From NCBI GenBank assembly GCA_963837465.1, contig CAWINB010000001.1, forward strand, positions 565,646-629,645: a stretch of DNA of 64,000 bases, read 5' to 3'. Below are positions 44,072-49,594 of the stretch, in pieces (positions within the stretch are counted from its first letter, which is position 1; each line of letters begins with the position of its first letter). A program made the position numbers and the translations under genes. The notes under the pieces were generated by a model, which saw only the letters and a program-made list of their open reading frames with translations, ran no database searches and was not told the DNA's origin. Source of the stretch: Candidatus Doudnabacteria bacterium (GTDB taxonomy: Bacteria; Patescibacteriota; Doudnabacteria; UBA920).

Positions 44072-44091
44072 GTCACAAATTGCTAGTCAAT
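44072..44091. repeat. 3' arm of 20-bp perfect inverted repeat bracketing the 23S gene (pre-rRNA processing stem)
   Basis: gtcacaaattgctagtcaat is the exact reverse complement of 49575-49594. Confidence 0.6.
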
Positions 44092-44508
44092 TTTTCCGCC
44101 TTAGCTAAAGCTATGGCGGATGAAAAAGAATTAAAATTTTCGGTTGATTAGTACTGCTCGGCTGAACACATTACTGTGCTTACACCTGCAGCCTATAGAT
44201 AGCGTTTAGTTATTAGCGTTTAGCGTCCAGTATTGCTACTATTCGCTATTCACTAACCGCTATTCACTATTTTGTTACGGGGTAGTCTTCCCCGAACCTT
44301 TTGTCACCGAAGTGACAACGAAACCTAGTTTTGTAGACGGCTTCACGCTTATATGCCTTCAGCGCTTATCCTAACTAGACCTAGCTACCCCGCCATGCCC
44401 TGGACAGGACAACGGGTACACCAGAGGTCTATGCTTTTCGGTCCTCTCGTACTAAAAAAGCGACTACTCAAGTTTCGCACACCCACAGCAGATAAGGACC
44501 AACACTTT

Positions 44509-44830
44509 GTTACAAAAGTAACAAAAATTCCAAATTTCAAATTAAAAATTTCAAACTGGAAAACACTTTGCTACTTTGGCATAAATATTTCTATTATGCT
44601 CTGCATGTCGCCATGCAGTTCGGACTATATCTTCAATGCATTATCCCGGCGGTTCATCCGGTATCGTAAAAATTTAAGATTGATAATTACAAAGTCTGGC
44701 GTGTAGTCTCTACGGGTTCCCTGGGATTGTTATGTATTCCCAAAGCCTTCCCTCGGTATTGTCTCACGTTTTCTACCATGAGAGTTTCACCGATTTAGCC
44801 AAATTTACAGACAGCATGGTTATTCCTTTT
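44509..44830 (-). ncRNA. group I intron 3 at the L2593-equivalent site (after GTGAGACAGT), no ORF
   Basis: R element GTAGAGACTACAC and S element GAAGATATAGTCCGAAC; exon resumes ...GGTCCTTATCTGC. Confidence 0.65.
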
Positions 44831-45491
44831 ACTGTCTCACGACGTTTTGAACCCAGCTCGCGTACCACTTTAATATGCGAACAGCATAACCCTTGGGAGC
44901 TTCTACACCCCCAGGATGTGATGAGCCGACATCGAGGTGCCAAACCCTCTCGTCGCTGTGGACGCTTGGAGAGGATCAGCCTGTTATCCCTAGAGTAACT
45001 TTTATCCGTTGGGCTTTGCGTCTTCCACTCGAACGCATCGGATCACTAACTTCCACTTTCGTGCCTGCGCGGGTCGCTGCCCTTGCAGTCAAGCAGGCTT
45101 ATGCGTTTGCACTACCGGCATGATTTCCATCCATACCTAGCCTACCTTAATAAACGCCTCCGTTACCATTTAGGAGGCAACCGCCCCAGTTAAACTACCC
45201 ACGAGCCACTGTCCCAAAGCAGGTTAAACTTTGGTTAGCAATTTCATCTTTACAGGGTGGTATTTCACCTGTTGCCTCCATGCCAGCTGGCGCCGGCACT
45301 TCAAAGGCTCCCACCTAGGCTAAACAATAAAAATAAAATTGCAATGACACGCTATAGTAAAGCTTCATAGGGTCTTTCCGTCTTGCTGCGGGTAGACGGC
45401 ATCTTTACCGCCATTGTAAATTCATCGGAATGTTCGTTAAGACAGTTCTCTACTCGTTATGCCATTCGTGCGGGTCGCAACTTACGCGACA

Positions 45492-45812
45492 CAAAATTGT
45501 TACTTTGCAAAACCACATCGGTTACTGATTGAGCTCTGTGGCGCGCTAATCTTTCGATTAGCATCTGCATGTCGCCATGCAGTTCAGACTATATCATCTC
45601 GCCTTGTTGGCGAGTTCCGCGTATAGTCGTTGAGGATCCGTTAAAAAAATTCAACGTTTCCTGCGGATTGTCCGGACTCCAACTCGTTTTGTTGGCATCA
45701 CTGAAGCATTTTTACTTATAAATAAGTAGCTTCAGATACTTCCGGGGTTCCCCGCATACAGCGGAATTTTCCATTCTTTAATAAATATTAAAGAATGGTC
45801 CCAGTCGTGTTT
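45492..45812 (-). ncRNA. group I intron 2 in domain IV (after GGTAGCGAAATTCCT), no ORF
   Basis: Q element AATCCGCAGG, S element GATGATATAGTCTGAAC; P7-P9 block CTGCATGGCGACATGCAG shared with intron 3. Confidence 0.65.
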
Positions 45813-45838
45813 AGGAATTTCGCTACCATAGGACAGTT

Positions 45839-46574
45839 CATTTATGTTAGCTTTATGTTTCCATAAAGATCAGACTATATCATTCCACCAGATTGATGGA
45901 TTCGGCGTTTAGTCGTTGAGGGTTTTTACTAAATGATTCTTTAAAATTTGTTAAATTATGTTTTCGTGTTCTTCCTTTTCCTTCATTTAAGCCTTCACGA
46001 AGTTTTACTATTTCTAGCAAGCCTTCGGAAGTTAAGTGTTGGTTTGCAAAAACTAGTTTTGCAATTTTAGAAAATAACGAATAGTTTCTTTTTTTAATTG
46101 CGGACAAGAAACCGAACCGGTCAAAGAAAGGGATTATTCTTTCTTTGAGTGCTGTATGATTTTGAACAATATATTGATGTACTCCATCTTTTCTATGGTC
46201 AATGCGACCACAGCCTAAATGATGCTTCAATAATGCAAGTACGGTAATATCTTTTTGAGAGACATTAAACGTTAGAATAACTTGCCATAATACTTTACTG
46301 TCAGTTCGTTTACGAAGGGAAACGTTAAAGCTTCCTTCTCCGTCTACAAAACCTGCAAAGTAATTTCCAAATTCAACAGGAATTTGTTTTAACCAATTTT
46401 GATCCATAAAGTTTCCTTTTGAATCGTTTAGTAAATCTTCCCTGCGGATTGACTGTATCTTGTAAATTTTTACTGTCATATTTCAGACGAGTATTACAAG
46501 TTTTAAGCACGTCGTTGTCCACGCGTGCACAGTTATTCCCGCAAATAGCCAAATTTTATAACTACAACATGTTC
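45839..46574 (-). mobile_element. group I intron 1 at the L1917-equivalent site (GTAACTAT|AACTGTCC) carrying a homing endonuclease gene
   Basis: Q element AATCCGCAGG at 46441-46455 rc, S-like GGAATGATATAGTCTGATC near 3' end; separated from intron 2 by a 26-nt exon (45813-45838). Confidence 0.7.
45880..46479 (-). CDS. LAGLIDADG homing endonuclease (intron-encoded)
   Basis: FAGFVDGEGSF motif; ORF lies entirely within intron 1. Confidence 0.85.
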   Translation of the reverse strand: MTVKIYKIQSIRREDLLNDSKGNFMDQNWLKQIPVEFGNYFAGFVDGEGSFNVSLRKRTDSKVLWQVILTFNVSQKDITVLALLKHHLGCGRIDHRKDGVHQYIVQNHTALKERIIPFFDRFGFLSAIKKRNYSLFSKIAKLVFANQHLTSEGLLEIVKLREGLNEGKGRTRKHNLTNFKESFSKNPQRLNAESINLVE

Positions 46575-47227: not shown

Positions 47228-47823
47228 TTCATTACCCAGCATATAAAAAGGTCAAGGTATATACCGAAGGTACACCTGCTTTTTTGCCGAGTTCCTTAAC
47301 GAACATTGTTCCGGACGCCTTGGGATTCTCTCCCCATCCACCTGTGTCGGTTTACGGTACGGACACTTTATAACGTGACTTCGACGCTTTTCTTGACACC
47401 TTGATTCACACTAATTCCCGTTGCCAGGTTTCTTCTTATTTTCGAGATTGTAACCGGACTTTACATCTCTCGCGAGGCAGTAAAGCCCGAAAAAGAAATT
47501 CCGGATTTGCCTGGAATTTCACCCTACGAATAAGACAACGCAAATAGTCAGATTACGCCAGTGTTATCATGATGCGTCCCGCCTAAGATAATTATAAAGT
47601 GGTTACGGAATATCAACCGTATTTTCCATCGGATGGACCCCTTGGGGCCCACTCTTAGGATCGACTAACCCAGGGACGACGATCGTTGCCCTGGAAACCT
47701 TGGATATTCGGCGAAGAGGATTCTCACCTCTATATATATTACTTATTCCAACATTCTTACTTGTACACTGTCCACGGCCGCTTACGCATACCGCTTCAAC
47801 CTGTGTACAACACTCCTCTACCA

Positions 47824-47938
47824 CTTGTGCGAAGCACAAGCATCCTTGATCCTTTATCATTTATCCTTGACCAACTGCGGAGCTGCAGCGGTAAAAGATA
47901 AAGGATTAAAGATAAAAGATACTTGTGCTTCGCACAAG
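47824..47938 (-). other. intervening sequence (IVS) in 23S helix 45
   Basis: 17-bp perfect stem cttgtgcgaagcacaag / cttgtgcttcgcacaag enclosing AT-rich hairpin at the canonical IVS site. Confidence 0.6.
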
Positions 47939-49025
47939 TCCACGTCTTCGGCACCTAGCTTAGCCCCTATATATTGTCGGCGCAGGATCGCTTGACCAGT
48001 GAGCTGTTACGCTTTCTTTAAAGGATGGCTGCTTCTAAGCCAACCTCCTGGTTGTATGGGCAATCCCACATCCTTTACACTATAGCTAGGATTTGGGGGC
48101 CTTAGACGGTGGTGTGGATTCTTCTCCATTTGTCTGGTGGAGCTTAGCCCCCACAGACTGACTGCCAGATTCTTGACCTTAAGAATTCAGAGTTTGGTTG
48201 GAGCCTACCGCTTGCGCAGCAGGTTTCCATTCAGTGCTTTACCTCTTAAGGGAACATCTGACGCTAGCCCTAAAGCTATTTCGAGGAGAACCAGCTATCA
48301 CCCGGTTCGATTGGAATTTCTCCCCTACGCACAGCTCATCCCCTATTTTTGCAGCAATAGTGGGTCCGGACCTCCCGTTACTTTTACATAACGTTCATCC
48401 TGGCCATGCGTAGCTCACGCGGGTTTCGGGTCTAACTCATGCGACATATAGGAATAGAATTATGAATATGGAATTATGAATTAGGAATACTGCGAATGCA
48501 GTCCCATAATTCTTAACTCATACTTCATAATTCTCATCCTATTACGGACTATTCATCCTCGCTTTCACTGCACTTTCGTCTTTGATAAGACTTAAGTAAG
48601 CCGCACAAGATTAACTCGTTGGATCATTCTTCAATAGGCACGCGGTTACTCACTGCTTCGCAGATGAGAATTTCAAATTAAAAATTTCAAATGTCAAATG
48701 AACTTGCAAGCTGCAGCCCTTTTGAAATTTGTAATTTGATATTTGACATTCCTAACTGCGAAGCAGTCAGAGCTTCCACTCCTTGTAAGTATACGGTTTC
48801 AGATACTATTTCATTCCCCTTCCGGGGTGCTTTTCACCTTTCCCTCACGGTACTTGTTCACTATCGGTCAATATGAGTATTTAGCCTTGGATCTTAGTCG
48901 ACCCGATTTCCGACCAGATTTCTCGTGTCTGGTCGTACTCAAGTTTAAAGTTCAGGAAATTGCATGGTTTTTCGCGATACGGGACTATCACCCTCTTTGG
49001 TCCGCCGTTCCAGGCGTGTTCTGCT

Positions 49026-49235
49026 AAACAGCAAACATAATTCCCAGCCCCTTTACAGAGGGGCAATGACTTCCACTTATAACGCCATCTTAGCAACGAC
49101 TGTAATCTTTAATTCTCCGTCTTGCGACTTTGAAAACACTAAAATGGTTTGGGCTAATTATTTAGAGATTAGCGTTTAGCGAATTAGCGTTTAGTAACTA
49201 ACCGCTATTCACTATCCACTAATCACTAATAATAT
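49026..49235 (-). other. about 210-nt expansion/IVS in 23S helix 9 region
   Basis: about 60 nt in E. coli; contains tagcgtttagcg / taaccgctattcactat short repeats also present in 3'-terminal expansion 44190-44275. Confidence 0.5.
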
Positions 49236-49574
49236 ACTTCCGCGTTCGCTCGCCACTACTAACGGAATCTCTTTCGTACTCGCGTACGAATTGATTTATT
49301 TTCCACGTGCTACTGAGATGTTTCACTTCGCACGGTTCCCGCATATACCGCCCCACGGCGGCACAGCACGCGCTCTTCCAGCGCGTGGGTTTCCCCATTC
49401 GGACACCCCCGGATCAAAGCTTGTTTGCCAGCTCCCCGAGGCTTTTCGTCAGGCTACAACGTCCTTCATCGGCTCATATTACCTAGGCATCCACCGTATA
49501 CCCTTATCTATTTTAATTCTATCCGCGAATTGTCATCTGTCTTAAAAAAACAGACGCGCGATCCGCGGTTTATT

Positions 49575-49594
49575 ATTGACTAGCAATTTGTGAC
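49575..49594. repeat. 5' arm of the 20-bp inverted repeat bracketing 23S
   Basis: attgactagcaatttgtgac. Confidence 0.6.

What the first reader, a model, noticed from the sequence alone, without database searches (positions are those of the whole stretch)
44072..49594. Unlinked 23S-5S operon with three group I introns, a LAGLIDADG gene, classical IVSs and a perfect 20-bp processing stem
The 23S gene (about 5.4 kb) carries group I introns at the L1917-like, L1945-1951-like and L2593-like positions, the first encoding a LAGLIDADG endonuclease. Introns 1 and 2 are separated by only a 26-nt exon, and introns 2 and 3 share the block CTGCATGGCGACATGCAG, so they are paralogous. Hairpin IVSs sit in helix 45 (17-bp perfect stem) and helix 9. 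A perfect 20-bp inverted repeat (44072-44091 and 49575-49594) lies about 50 nt outside each mature end, which fits an RNase III processing stem. No 16S gene lies within 1 kb upstream, so the 16S is unlinked. The motif atttcaaattaaaaatttcaaa occurs both in intron 3 (44531-44557) and in an expansion at 48668-48693.
Basis: partly seen in the sequence, partly recalled or inferred. Interest (0 to 1): 0.55.

Follow-up and report, generated by a model that had tools for sequence, protein, structure and literature searches.

The report
Intron-riddled 23S gene hiding a tRNA

Summary
The core observation holds. A 5,392-nt 23S gene (49518..44127, minus strand) and a 5S gene lie in a window with no 16S. 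The 23S gene has three group I introns, and the first encodes a single-domain LAGLIDADG endonuclease. A perfect 20-bp stem brackets the gene. Several details need correcting. The introns sit after E. coli positions 1917, 1943 and 2604, not 1945-1951 and 2593. The "helix 9" hairpin is at about position 263. The hairpin inserts are not classical IVS homologues; they are heptamer-repeat palindromes also found in intergenic DNA of this window. The block shared by introns 2 and 3 is a conserved core element, so it is not evidence of paralogy. Intron-rich, insert-rich 23S genes are documented in CPR bacteria (Tsurumaki 2024), so this part is ordinary for the group.

A 20-bp perfect stem closes it, and it contains a canonical tRNA-Lys(CUU) with encoded CCA (60.4 bits). 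An independent assembly reproduces it. Four close relatives lack it, and a fifth has the same stem arm around a different interior. None of 23 other 23S loci has an internal tRNA. I infer, without proof, that RNase III and RNase P release the tRNA and leave the 23S in two pieces.

The parts
44127..49518 (-). 23S rRNA gene, 5,392 nt. It is 4,007 nt without the three introns and 3,497 nt without the helix 63 insert as well.
   Evidence: Rfam RF02541, 2008.9 bits, full model. Lengths.
43588..43703 (-). 5S rRNA gene, 423 nt downstream of the 23S 3' end
   Evidence: Rfam RF00001, 67.3 bits
43551..43585 (-). Terminator-like perfect 14-bp hairpin followed by a T-run, just after 5S
   Evidence: I21; sequence read
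49575..49594 (-). 5' arm of the perfect 20-bp processing stem, 56 nt upstream of the mature 23S 5' end
   Evidence: I9. The arm is identical in relative L002 although the flanks diverge.
44072..44091 (-). 3' arm of the perfect 20-bp processing stem, 35 nt downstream of the 23S 3' end
   Evidence: I9. Identical in L003; one G-C to G-U change in L002.
49765..49792 (-). Promoter-like site (TGGACA-16-TAAAAT) upstream of the processing stem. Weak evidence only.
   Evidence: 10 of 12 consensus matches; the number of sites found is not above the shuffles
45839..46574 (-). Group I intron 1 at L1917, 736 nt. P1 is GUAACUAU/GUAGUUAU with U1917-G, P10 is AAC/GUU, and the last base is G.
   Evidence: Rfam halves of 40.6 and 18.9 bits; pairings checked; 91-97% identical introns in relatives
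45880..46407 (-). LAGLIDADG homing endonuclease gene, 175 aa, one domain, in the P8 loop and running into the 3' core of intron 1
   Evidence: PF00961, E=9e-19; matches each half of I-SmaMI, E=1e-40; 949 homologues
45813..45838 (-). 26-nt exon, E. coli 1918-1943, between introns 1 and 2
   Evidence: the same arrangement occurs in Paceibacterota locus L022
45492..45812 (-). Group I intron 2 at L1943, 321 nt, no ORF. P1 is UCCU/GGGA, P10 is GUCG/CGAC, and the last base is G.
   Evidence: Rfam 64.1 bits. Precisely absent in L002, L003, L147, L148, L149, L150 and L152. Homologous L1943 intron in L022.
44503..44830 (-). Group I intron 3 at L2604, 328 nt, no ORF. P1 is AGACAGU/GCUGUCU, P10 is UGGU/ACCA, and the last base is G. 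A heptamer-repeat hairpin sits in its 3' tail (44525-44555).
   Evidence: Rfam 69.4 bits. 80% identical intron in L002. An intron at the same site carries a 159-aa LAGLIDADG ORF in L003. The site is empty in L147 and L149.
46738..47247 (-). 510-nt insert replacing the tip of helix 63. Its closing stem has arms 47221-47247 and 46739-46765, with 20 bp perfect.
   Evidence: (I5). Folds well (z = -7.6). No Rfam family other than tRNA. No Pfam ORF. Reproduced in the independent Logan contig L146.
47002..47077 (-). tRNA-Lys(CUU) gene with encoded CCA, inside the helix 63 insert and on the 23S strand
   Evidence: Rfam RF00005, 60.4 bits against a gathering score of 29. ARAGORN. The cloverleaf is kept in the MFE fold of the whole insert.
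47824..47940 (-). Helix 45 hairpin insert with heptamer-repeat arms (ATCTTTT / AAGGATA type)
   Evidence: (I1); absent in L002
48654..48758 (-). Helix 25 hairpin insert with heptamer-repeat arms (AATTTCA / TGAAATT type)
   Evidence: (I2); absent in L002
48449..48543 (-). Hairpin insert at about E. coli 650 (helix 31 region, assignment from memory) with heptamer arms (GAATTAT type)
   Evidence: (I3)
49165..49238 (-). Hairpin insert at about E. coli 263 (between H13 and H14) with heptamer arms (TAGTGAA / AACGCTA type).
44197..44284 (-). Hairpin insert at about E. coli 2832 (between H100 and H101), of the same heptamer family as the one at about 263
   Evidence: (D2, D11); absent in L002

Best explanation
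This is the single, 16S-unlinked 23S-5S operon of a Candidatus Doudnabacteria-like CPR bacterium. Two kinds of insert interrupt the 23S gene.

(1) Three self-splicing group I introns. They sit at L1917 (with a single-domain LAGLIDADG homing endonuclease that spreads it), L1943 and L2604. The last two have no ORF.

(2) Non-intron inserts in surface helices. These are five heptamer-repeat hairpins and one 510-nt insert at helix 63. A 20-bp perfect stem closes that insert, and it carries a complete tRNA-Lys(CUU) gene.

Proposed pathway. The operon is transcribed from upstream of 49594. RNase III cuts the 20-bp stem that brackets the 23S. The introns splice themselves out, each guided by an internal guide sequence that pairs with both flanking exons. 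The helix 63 stem, also 20 bp and perfect, is cut in the same way. RNase P and 3' trimming then release a functional tRNA-Lys from the excised piece. The mature 23S is left as two non-covalent fragments broken at helix 63.

What is shown and what is inferred. Shown: the gene anatomy, the intron boundaries, the guide pairings, the presence or absence of each element in relatives, and the quality of the tRNA. Inferred: all RNA processing steps, the fragmentation, and tRNA function.
For: - Operon and taxon. establish the operon. The 23S exons are 95-98% identical to Ca. Doudnabacteria nzgw383, and synteny is shared with L002.
- Introns. Rfam scores. P1 with U-G, P10 and a terminal G for all three. 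Exact empty sites in relatives.
- Endonuclease..
- Precedent. CPR 23S genes commonly have such inserts, including group I introns at 1917 and 2604, and the inserts are removed from transcripts (PMC11270868).
- Processing stem. Perfect 20 bp, with arms conserved in relatives while the flanks diverge.
- Helix 63 insert. It replaces exactly the short helix 63 tip seen in L002, L003, L147 and L148. It is closed by a 20-bp perfect stem. It is strongly structured (z = -7.6), with the cloverleaf as an independent domain.
- tRNA. 60.4 bits, with U8, G18G19, the T-loop, A73 and CCA. It is co-oriented with the 23S, and no good promoter lies inside the insert. The other two tRNA genes in the window also encode CCA. 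AAG makes up 29% of Lys codons in eight sampled ORFs. A standalone tRNA-Lys(CUU) with the same acceptor stem exists in a metagenome contig.
- Not a misassembly. Logan contig L146 is 100% identical over 2,398 nt across all the junctions.
Against: - No RNA data, so excision, splicing, fragmentation and tRNA maturation are all untested.
- The tRNA-bearing insert is seen in this one genome only. I found no homologue in 23 other 23S loci, 120 metagenome loci, viral contigs or phage records, so nothing shows it is under selection.
- The tRNA has a 6-nt variable loop and two G-U pairs closing the anticodon stem. It could be a decaying passenger.
- The rest of the genome could not be read, so I cannot say whether another tRNA-Lys gene exists.
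- RNase III and RNase P genes were not looked for in the window.
Confidence: 0.6

Rival explanations
1. The helix 63 insert is not excised. It stays in the mature 23S as a bacterial expansion segment at the same site as eukaryotic ES27L, and the tRNA-shaped domain is simply part of it.
For: Helix 63 lies on the subunit surface and is the site of the large ES27L expansion in eukaryotes (established knowledge, from memory). CPR relatives L021 and L022 have helix 63 regions about 80 nt longer than E. coli. The insert is a compact, well-folded multi-domain RNA.
Against: A correctly folded tRNA with an accessible acceptor stem is an RNase P substrate wherever it sits, so a break is expected. The 20-bp perfect closing stem matches the operon's own processing stem in length and perfection. 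CPR rRNA inserts are reported to be removed from transcripts (PMC11270868).
Confidence: 0.15
2. The insert is an RNase III-excised intervening sequence that is discarded. The tRNA is a non-functional passenger or pseudogene picked up by recombination. It does nothing for the cell.
For: It occurs in a single genome. Close relatives lack it. L149 has the same closing-stem 3' arm around an unrelated interior, which suggests a site with exchangeable, dispensable cargo. About 430 nt of the insert have no recognisable function.
Against: The tRNA shows no sign of decay. It scores 60.4 bits, all four stems are intact, the conserved D- and T-loop bases are present, and A73 and CCA are present. Once transcribed and excised it would be processed like any tRNA precursor.
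Confidence: 0.22
3. The tRNA-bearing insert is an assembly chimera that joins a tRNA locus to the 23S gene.
For: The source is a metagenome-assembled genome, and rRNA genes are often misassembled.
Against: An independent assembler (Logan contig L146, run ERR10755945) gives the identical 2,398 nt across both insert junctions, intron 1, the 26-nt exon and intron 2. The insert replaces exactly the helix 63 tip and is closed by a perfect 20-bp stem that continues helix 63. Relative L149 has the same stem arm at the same site.
Confidence: 0.03

Closest known systems
Insertion sequences in CPR/Patescibacteria rRNA genes (Brown et al. 2015 as cited in, and Tsurumaki et al. 2024, PMC11270868)
   Same: 23S genes hold up to 16 inserts. 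Group I introns cluster in the 3' half, including sites 1917 and 2604. Single-domain LAGLIDADG_1 endonucleases are typical. Short non-intron inserts sit at the classical IVS sites. The paper also reports long uncharacterised inserts of 500-1,000 bp.
   Different: tRNA does not occur as a word in that paper's main text or its held supplement. Position 1943 is not among the frequent LAGLIDADG_1-ORF sites it lists (1917, 1931, 1952, 2593, 2604, 2657), though its positions are approximate.
[quoted passage not shown] C9 and Thermotoga subterranea (Haugen et al. 2007, PMC1995217)
   Same: Same insertion site, similar intron size (743 and 774 nt against 736 nt) and similar endonuclease size (181 and 168 aa against 175 aa). 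In both, the ORF runs into the ribozyme core.
   Different: Here the ORF begins in P8 (my reading). A second intron follows only 26 nt downstream.
RNase III-processed intervening sequences in helices 25 and 45 of bacterial 23S rRNA (Salmonella, Leptospira, Coxiella and others)
   Same: Hairpin inserts at helices 25 and 45 with long stems. The expected result is a fragmented 23S without re-ligation (PMC11270868).
   Different: The arms here are tandem heptamer repeats of families that also occur in intergenic DNA of this window. There is no IVS-protein ORF. Close relatives carry different hairpins or none at these sites.
Discontinuous mitochondrial LSU rRNA of Tetrahymena pyriformis, whose two coding segments are separated by a tRNA gene (Heinonen et al. 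1987, cited in PMC7758197)
   Same: A tRNA gene lies between two parts of a large-subunit rRNA that would work as separate pieces.
   Different: That case is an organelle genome with rearranged segments, and the break is near the 5' end. Here it is a bacterium, the segments are collinear, and the break is at helix 63 inside a stem-closed insert.
tRNA genes in the 16S-23S internal transcribed spacer of ordinary bacterial rrn operons
   Same: A tRNA is co-transcribed with rRNA, flanked by RNase III stems and released by RNase P. Examples are the tRNA-Ile/tRNA-Ala spacers in loci L007-L024.
   Different: The spacer here lies inside the 23S gene, and this operon has no 16S.
Eukaryotic expansion segment ES27L (from memory)
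   Same: The same helix (H63) tolerates a very large insertion.
   Different: ES27L is kept in mature rRNA and has no tRNA domain.

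Membership tests
Group I intron (Rfam RF00028) | Covariance-model score at or above the gathering score (50 bits) | tested here: met
   Intron 3 scores 69.4 bits and intron 2 scores 64.1 bits. Intron 1 scores only as two halves (40.6 bits at E=1e-8, and 18.9 bits) because a 528-nt ORF splits the core.
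Group I intron (Rfam RF00028) | 5' splice site after a U paired with G in P1; internal guide sequence also pairs with the 3' exon (P10); intron ends in G | tested here: met
   All three introns meet this. P1 is 8, 4 and 7 bp with a terminal U-G. P10 is 3, 4 and 4 bp. The last base is G in each.
Group I intron (Rfam RF00028) | Precise intron-less alleles exist and the exons rejoin into conserved rRNA sequence | tested here: met
   Seven relatives lack intron 2 exactly. L147 and L149 lack intron 3. The in-silico spliced exons match the E. coli 1900-1965 and 2590-2620 regions. No empty L1917 site was sampled, because the relatives were fetched through the endonuclease.
Group I intron (Rfam RF00028) | Self-splicing activity | not testable with these tools
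   Needs in vitro transcription and splicing, or RNA-seq junction reads.
LAGLIDADG homing endonuclease (Pfam PF00961) | LAGLIDADG_1 domain above the curated cut-off, with the motif's acidic residue | tested here: met
   68.6 bits against a cut-off of 23.1, one domain at residues 18-115. The motif reads FAGFVDGEGSF. It matches both halves of I-SmaMI.
LAGLIDADG homing endonuclease (Pfam PF00961) | Cleaves the intron-less L1917 target as a homodimer | not testable with these tools
   Only the analogy to I-ShaI from a CPR 23S gene (PMC11270868).
tRNA (Rfam RF00005) | Covariance-model score above the gathering score, with a cloverleaf and conserved D-loop and T-loop bases | tested here: met
   60.4 bits against 29. 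ARAGORN calls tRNA-Lys(CUU), 76 nt. U8, G18G19, a UUCAACU T-loop, A73 and CCA are present. The cloverleaf appears unprompted in the MFE fold of the 531-nt region.
tRNA (Rfam RF00005) | Expressed, end-matured and aminoacylated | not testable with these tools
   Needs tRNA-seq or a Northern blot.
RNase III-processed 23S intervening sequence (IVS) | Insert in a surface helix, closed by an extended duplex of about 20 bp or more | tested here: met
   Helix 63 insert: 20 bp perfect within 27-nt arms (I5). H45: 18 bp perfect within 50-nt arms. H25: 50-nt arms at 80% complementarity (I1 and I2).
RNase III-processed 23S intervening sequence (IVS) | Excised without re-ligation, leaving a fragmented 23S | not testable with these tools
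   Needs an rRNA gel, a Northern blot or end mapping.
RNase III-processed 23S intervening sequence (IVS) | Classical IVS ORF (23S_rRNA_IVP) or sequence similarity to known IVSs | tested here: not met
   The ORFs in the helix 63 insert have no Pfam hit. The hairpin inserts have no ORF of 70 aa or more and belong to heptamer-repeat families shared with intergenic DNA. Sequence similarity to known IVSs was not tested.
Unlinked rRNA operon | No 16S gene on the same transcription unit as the 23S | tested here: met
   No SSU hit in the window, which covers 14.4 kb upstream and 43.5 kb downstream. The nearest upstream gene (STAS, 50523-50867) is on the opposite strand. L002 has the same neighbours.

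The most novel reading that the evidence does not exclude
A bacterial 23S rRNA gene serves as the transcription unit for a functional tRNA. tRNA-Lys(CUU) would mature from an internal, stem-closed spacer at helix 63, the ES27L site. Making the tRNA would then break the 23S into two pieces, so the spacer acts as an internal transcribed spacer inside a bacterial large-subunit rRNA. The shared closing stem with a different interior in relative L149 would further make helix 63 a cassette site with exchangeable cargo.
Probability: 0.4. Interest if true: 0.7.

Novelty: new variant of a known kind. Interest (0 to 1): 0.45.

Why it matters
Taken alone, the multi-intron, insert-rich, 16S-unlinked 23S gene is one more example of a documented CPR feature, and is useful mainly as a well-resolved case. 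A set of close relatives shows recent gain and loss of individual introns, including an ORF-less L1943 intron only 26 nt from an endonuclease-bearing L1917 intron. That spacing suggests the L1943 intron could spread by co-conversion.

The tRNA gene nested in a 23S insert is the part that would matter. If the tRNA is functional, its supply is tied directly to rRNA transcription, and the large-subunit rRNA must be fragmented to make it. It would also show that rRNA intervening sequences can carry useful cargo. Expression data from the source sample and a scan of the full genome could test this directly.

Tried and rejected
- Exact look-ups of the LigA protein and of the 199-aa endonuclease ORF found nothing on record.
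- Metagenome scans. The exact tRNA 3' half found nothing. A degenerate acceptor/T-loop pattern gave 120 loci, mostly tRNA-Gly. None held 23S sequence, and only one was a tRNA-Lys(CUU), a standalone gene 78% identical.
- Phage BLAST with the insert returned only weak tRNA-level matches.
- Viral-contig scans. The two tRNA patterns found nothing. The stem arm gave six unrelated, chance-level matches in coding contexts.
- An Rfam scan of the insert at E up to 10 found nothing credible besides the tRNA.
- Pfam on five small ORFs in the insert gave no hit.
- The 54-codon ORF behind the Shine-Dalgarno-like AAAGGAGGG was searched against 1.84 billion representatives. The single hit is a spurious tandem-repeat ORF, so I do not treat the ORF as a gene.
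- A homologue search with the neighbouring STAS protein was meant to fetch more relatives. It returned about 70% hits labelled Acidobacteria and was of no use for synteny, but it did lead to Logan contigs from the source run.
- The 41-aa partial ORF in L149's helix 63 insert has no Pfam hit and no homologue.
- Brown et al. 2015 could not be read.
- Literature searches for a tRNA inside a bacterial 23S IVS, and for 'L1943', found no precedent in the held library. This is absence in a partial library, not proof of novelty.
- MAFFT's suggestion that 23 nt after the tRNA are a remnant of the ancestral helix 63 loop was not reproduced with a second relative, so I dropped it.

Full report
WHAT IS THERE

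Rfam places a complete bacterial 23S rRNA gene on the minus strand at 49518..44127 (2008.9 bits, model positions 1-2925). A 5S gene lies at 43703..43588. The 64-kb window has no SSU hit. The gene is 5,392 nt long, against about 2,900 nt in E. coli. The nearest upstream gene encodes a STAS protein on the opposite strand, followed by a channel protein and LigA. So the 16S is unlinked at least at this scale.

The operon ends in a perfect 14-bp hairpin with a T-run after the 5S (I21). A promoter-like TGGACA-16-TAAAAT lies at 49792..49765, but this is only a consensus match.

SOURCE ORGANISM

The intron-encoded endonuclease is 93% identical to one in 'Candidatus Doudnabacteria bacterium nzgw383' (L003). 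The 23S exons are 95-98% identical to that genome. A second relative, L002 (GCA_964868985.1), has the same neighbours upstream of its 23S. An identical copy of the endonuclease lies on a 699,532-bp contig in public data. The window therefore comes from a CPR/Patescibacteria genome.

This matters for novelty. Tsurumaki et al. 2024 (PMC11270868) report the following for CPR bacteria:
- 82% of 23S genes carry inserts of 100 bp or more.
- A gene can hold up to 16 inserts.
- 45% of the 23S inserts are group I introns, and these are biased to the 3' half.
- Single-domain LAGLIDADG_1 genes concentrate at positions 1917, 1931, 1952, 2593, 2604 and 2657.
- Short non-intron inserts sit at the classical IVS sites.
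- Such inserts are removed from transcripts (citing Brown et al. 2015).

THE THREE INTRONS

I mapped the inserts against an E. coli 23S (L001) and against relatives.

Intron 1 spans 46574..45839 (736 nt) and follows U1917.
- P1 is exon GUAACUAU paired with GUAGUUAU, with the U-G pair at the splice site.
- P10 is AAC/GUU, and the last base is G.
- Rfam finds its two halves separately (40.6 bits at E=1e-8, and 18.9 bits) because a 528-nt ORF sits in the P8 loop (I25).
- The ORF (46407..45883, 175 aa) has one LAGLIDADG_1 domain (68.6 bits). It matches each half of the two-domain I-SmaMI at E=1e-40, so it is the homodimeric type usual in CPR.
- Size and site match the L1917 introns of Synechococcus C9 and Thermotoga subterranea (PMC1995217).

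A 26-nt exon follows at 45838..45813, equivalent to E. coli 1918-1943.

Intron 2 spans 45812..45492 (321 nt, 64.1 bits) and follows U1943, not 1945-1951.
- Its guide sequence CGAC-U-GGGA pairs with both the 5' exon (UCCU) and the 3' exon (GUCG).
- Seven relatives lack it exactly (L002, L003, L147, L148, L149, L150, L152). One of these, L149, is 96.6% identical to the window in intron 1.
- Its only homologue in my sample is an L1943 intron in a distant Paceibacterota genome (L022). That genome also has an L1917 endonuclease intron separated from it by a 26-nt exon.
- I infer that this ORF-less intron was gained recently. It could spread by co-conversion when the neighbouring L1917 intron homes.

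Intron 3 spans 44830..44503 (328 nt, 69.4 bits) and follows U2604, not 2593.
- P1 is AGACAGU/GCUGUCU and P10 is UGGU/ACCA.
- L002 has an ORF-less homologue. L003 has an intron at this site with a 159-aa LAGLIDADG ORF. L147 and L149 have empty sites.

The block shared by introns 2 and 3 is real (51 nt at 86% identity, D3). It is the conserved GAUAUAGUC-plus-P9 core. It also matches introns in Gammaproteobacteria MAGs at 94-97%. It therefore marks a common subgroup and does not show paralogy within this genome.

THE PROCESSING STEM

The perfect 20-bp inverted repeat (49594..49575 with 44091..44072) is confirmed (I9). It is far beyond chance. Its arms are identical in L002 and L003, apart from one G-C to G-U change, while the surrounding spacer is barely alignable. 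This fits a conserved RNase III stem that extends helix 1. In this genome extra hairpins have been inserted between the stem and both mature ends.

THE HAIRPIN INSERTS

Inserts of 74-117 nt lie at five places:
- helix 25;
- about 650;
- helix 45;
- about 2832, between H100 and H101.

Each is a long imperfect hairpin whose arms are tandem 7-nt repeats. The same heptamer families form hairpins in the tail of intron 3, in the 23S-5S spacer, and in intergenic DNA elsewhere in the window (40529-40600 and 63559-63614). Relative L002 has different hairpins or none at these sites. H25 and H45 are the classical IVS sites, so RNase III cleavage is plausible. The elements themselves are a genome-wide repeat family, not classical IVS homologues.

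THE MISSED ELEMENT

Between E. coli 1679 and 1767 the window has 566 nt where E. coli has 88. Alignment with L002, L003, L147 and L148 shows that a 510-nt insert (47247..46738) replaces the short tip of helix 63.

Features of the insert:
- It is closed by 27-nt arms with 20 perfect base pairs, the same length and perfection as the operon's processing stem (I5).
- It contains a tRNA-Lys(CUU) at 47077..47002, on the 23S strand, scoring 60.4 bits against Rfam's gathering score of 29.
- The tRNA has an intact cloverleaf, U8, G18G19, a standard T-loop, discriminator A73 and an encoded CCA.
- The whole insert folds far better than shuffles (z = -7.6), and the cloverleaf emerges as an independent domain flanked by hairpins.
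- No good promoter-like site lies inside it.
- No other Rfam family matches it.
- It has no supported ORF.

It is not an assembly artefact. A Logan contig from run ERR10755945 (L146) is 100% identical over 2,398 nt, spanning both insert junctions, intron 1, the 26-nt exon and intron 2.

Distribution:
- None of 23 other 23S loci that carry related endonucleases has an internal tRNA.
- The closest partial relative, L149, has the same closing-stem 3' arm at the same site but an unrelated interior of at least 168 nt.

MECHANISM

Shown: the anatomy, the boundaries, the guide pairings, the tRNA quality, and the presence or absence of each element in relatives.

Inferred: co-transcription; RNase III cleavage at the two 20-bp stems; self-splicing of the three introns; RNase P and 3' trimming releasing tRNA-Lys(CUU); and a 23S left in at least two pieces.

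Supporting context:
- The other two tRNA genes of the window also encode CCA.
- AAG is 29% of Lys codons in eight sampled ORFs.
- A standalone tRNA-Lys(CUU) with the same acceptor stem exists elsewhere.

Rival readings are a retained ES27L-like expansion segment, a discarded IVS with a passenger tRNA, and a misassembly. The last is essentially excluded.

COMPARISON AND NOVELTY

Except for the helix 63 insert, and with the two ORF-less introns as new site details, everything here is a new member of a documented kind (CPR rRNA inserts; L1917 LAGLIDADG introns; unlinked rRNA genes).

I did not find a tRNA gene nested in a bacterial 23S insert in the searchable literature. The nearest analogues are:
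- the Tetrahymena mitochondrial LSU rRNA, whose two segments are separated by a tRNA gene (Heinonen 1987, cited in PMC7758197);
- the tRNA-bearing 16S-23S spacer of ordinary operons.

I therefore rate the locus a new variant of a known kind, of moderate interest. The rating is limited by the single occurrence and the lack of RNA evidence.

Noticed in passing
window 8712..8306 (-): A tRNA gene split by a group I intron of about 332 nt in the anticodon loop (Rfam Intron_gpI 8661..8355, 53.3 bits). ARAGORN missed it. Spliced in silico it reads as tRNA-Asn(GUU) or tRNA-Thr(UGU), depending on the splice point. U1-A72, G73 and a 6-bp P1 (GGCUGU/GCAGCU) favour Asn. CCA is encoded.
   Followed up: partly
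window 6739..8085 (+): An ORF that looks like a large serine recombinase, judged by eye from the translation and not searched. It ends about 220 nt from the 3' end of the split tRNA gene, which suggests an integrated element at that tRNA.
   Followed up: no
window 34446-34472, 36907-36936, 40529-40600, 56217-56255, 58667-58704, 63559-63614, plus the 23S inserts: A genome-wide family of hairpins whose arms are tandem 7-nt repeats (for example TAGCGTT/AACGCTA, ATCCTTA/TAAGGAT, AATTTCA/TGAAATT). Loops of the 23S copies often contain CTGCAG. They occupy intergenic DNA, rRNA variable helices, an intron tail and the 23S-5S spacer, and they differ between close relatives. They resemble cyanobacterial STRR heptamer repeats (from memory). 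I found no description of them for CPR.
   Followed up: partly
L149 1-190 (ENA ERZ27253637 k141_231995): A close relative (96.6% identical in intron 1) has the same helix 63 closing-stem 3' arm (CATTACCCAGCATAT) but an unrelated interior with a partial 41-aa ORF that has no homologues. This suggests a shared stem with exchangeable cargo. The contig starts inside the insert.
   Followed up: partly
window 46899..46735 (-), inside the helix 63 insert: A strong Shine-Dalgarno-like AAAGGAGGG lies 5 nt before a GUG that opens a 54-codon ORF. The SD is paired in a long hairpin with CCCUCCUUUGG, which resembles the anti-SD end of 16S. There is no Pfam hit and no credible homologue among 1.84 billion representatives.
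   Followed up: yes
window 49526-49573 and 44094-44121: Relative to L002 and L003, this genome has extra hairpins (48 nt and 28 nt) inserted between the conserved processing stem and the mature 5' and 3' ends of the 23S.
   Followed up: partly
L147 1941-2455; L003 2955-3434: Relatives differ in intron content. L147 has a roughly 515-nt insert at about E. coli 2500 and empty L1943 and L2604 sites. L003 has an intron at L2604 with a 159-aa LAGLIDADG ORF. Intron gain and loss is fast within this lineage.
   Followed up: partly
L006-L020, L023, L024: Endonucleases 46-55% identical to this one sit in 23S genes of MAGs labelled Gammaproteobacteria, Proteobacteria, Acidobacteria, Myxococcota, Saccharicenans, Thiomargarita and Woeseiaceae. 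Where enough upstream sequence is held, these loci have ordinary tRNA-Ile/tRNA-Ala spacers before the 23S. The intron family is not confined to CPR.
   Followed up: no
window 50523-50867 (+): The closest relatives of the STAS-domain protein next to the 23S, apart from itself, are only about 65-73% identical. The few that carry names are labelled Acidobacteria or Bryobacteraceae, which hints at horizontal acquisition.
   Followed up: no
L022 12939-13015: ARAGORN reports an odd tRNA-like gene with a 4-base anticodon (caca) about 100 nt after the last 23S match of the Paceibacterota locus.
   Followed up: no
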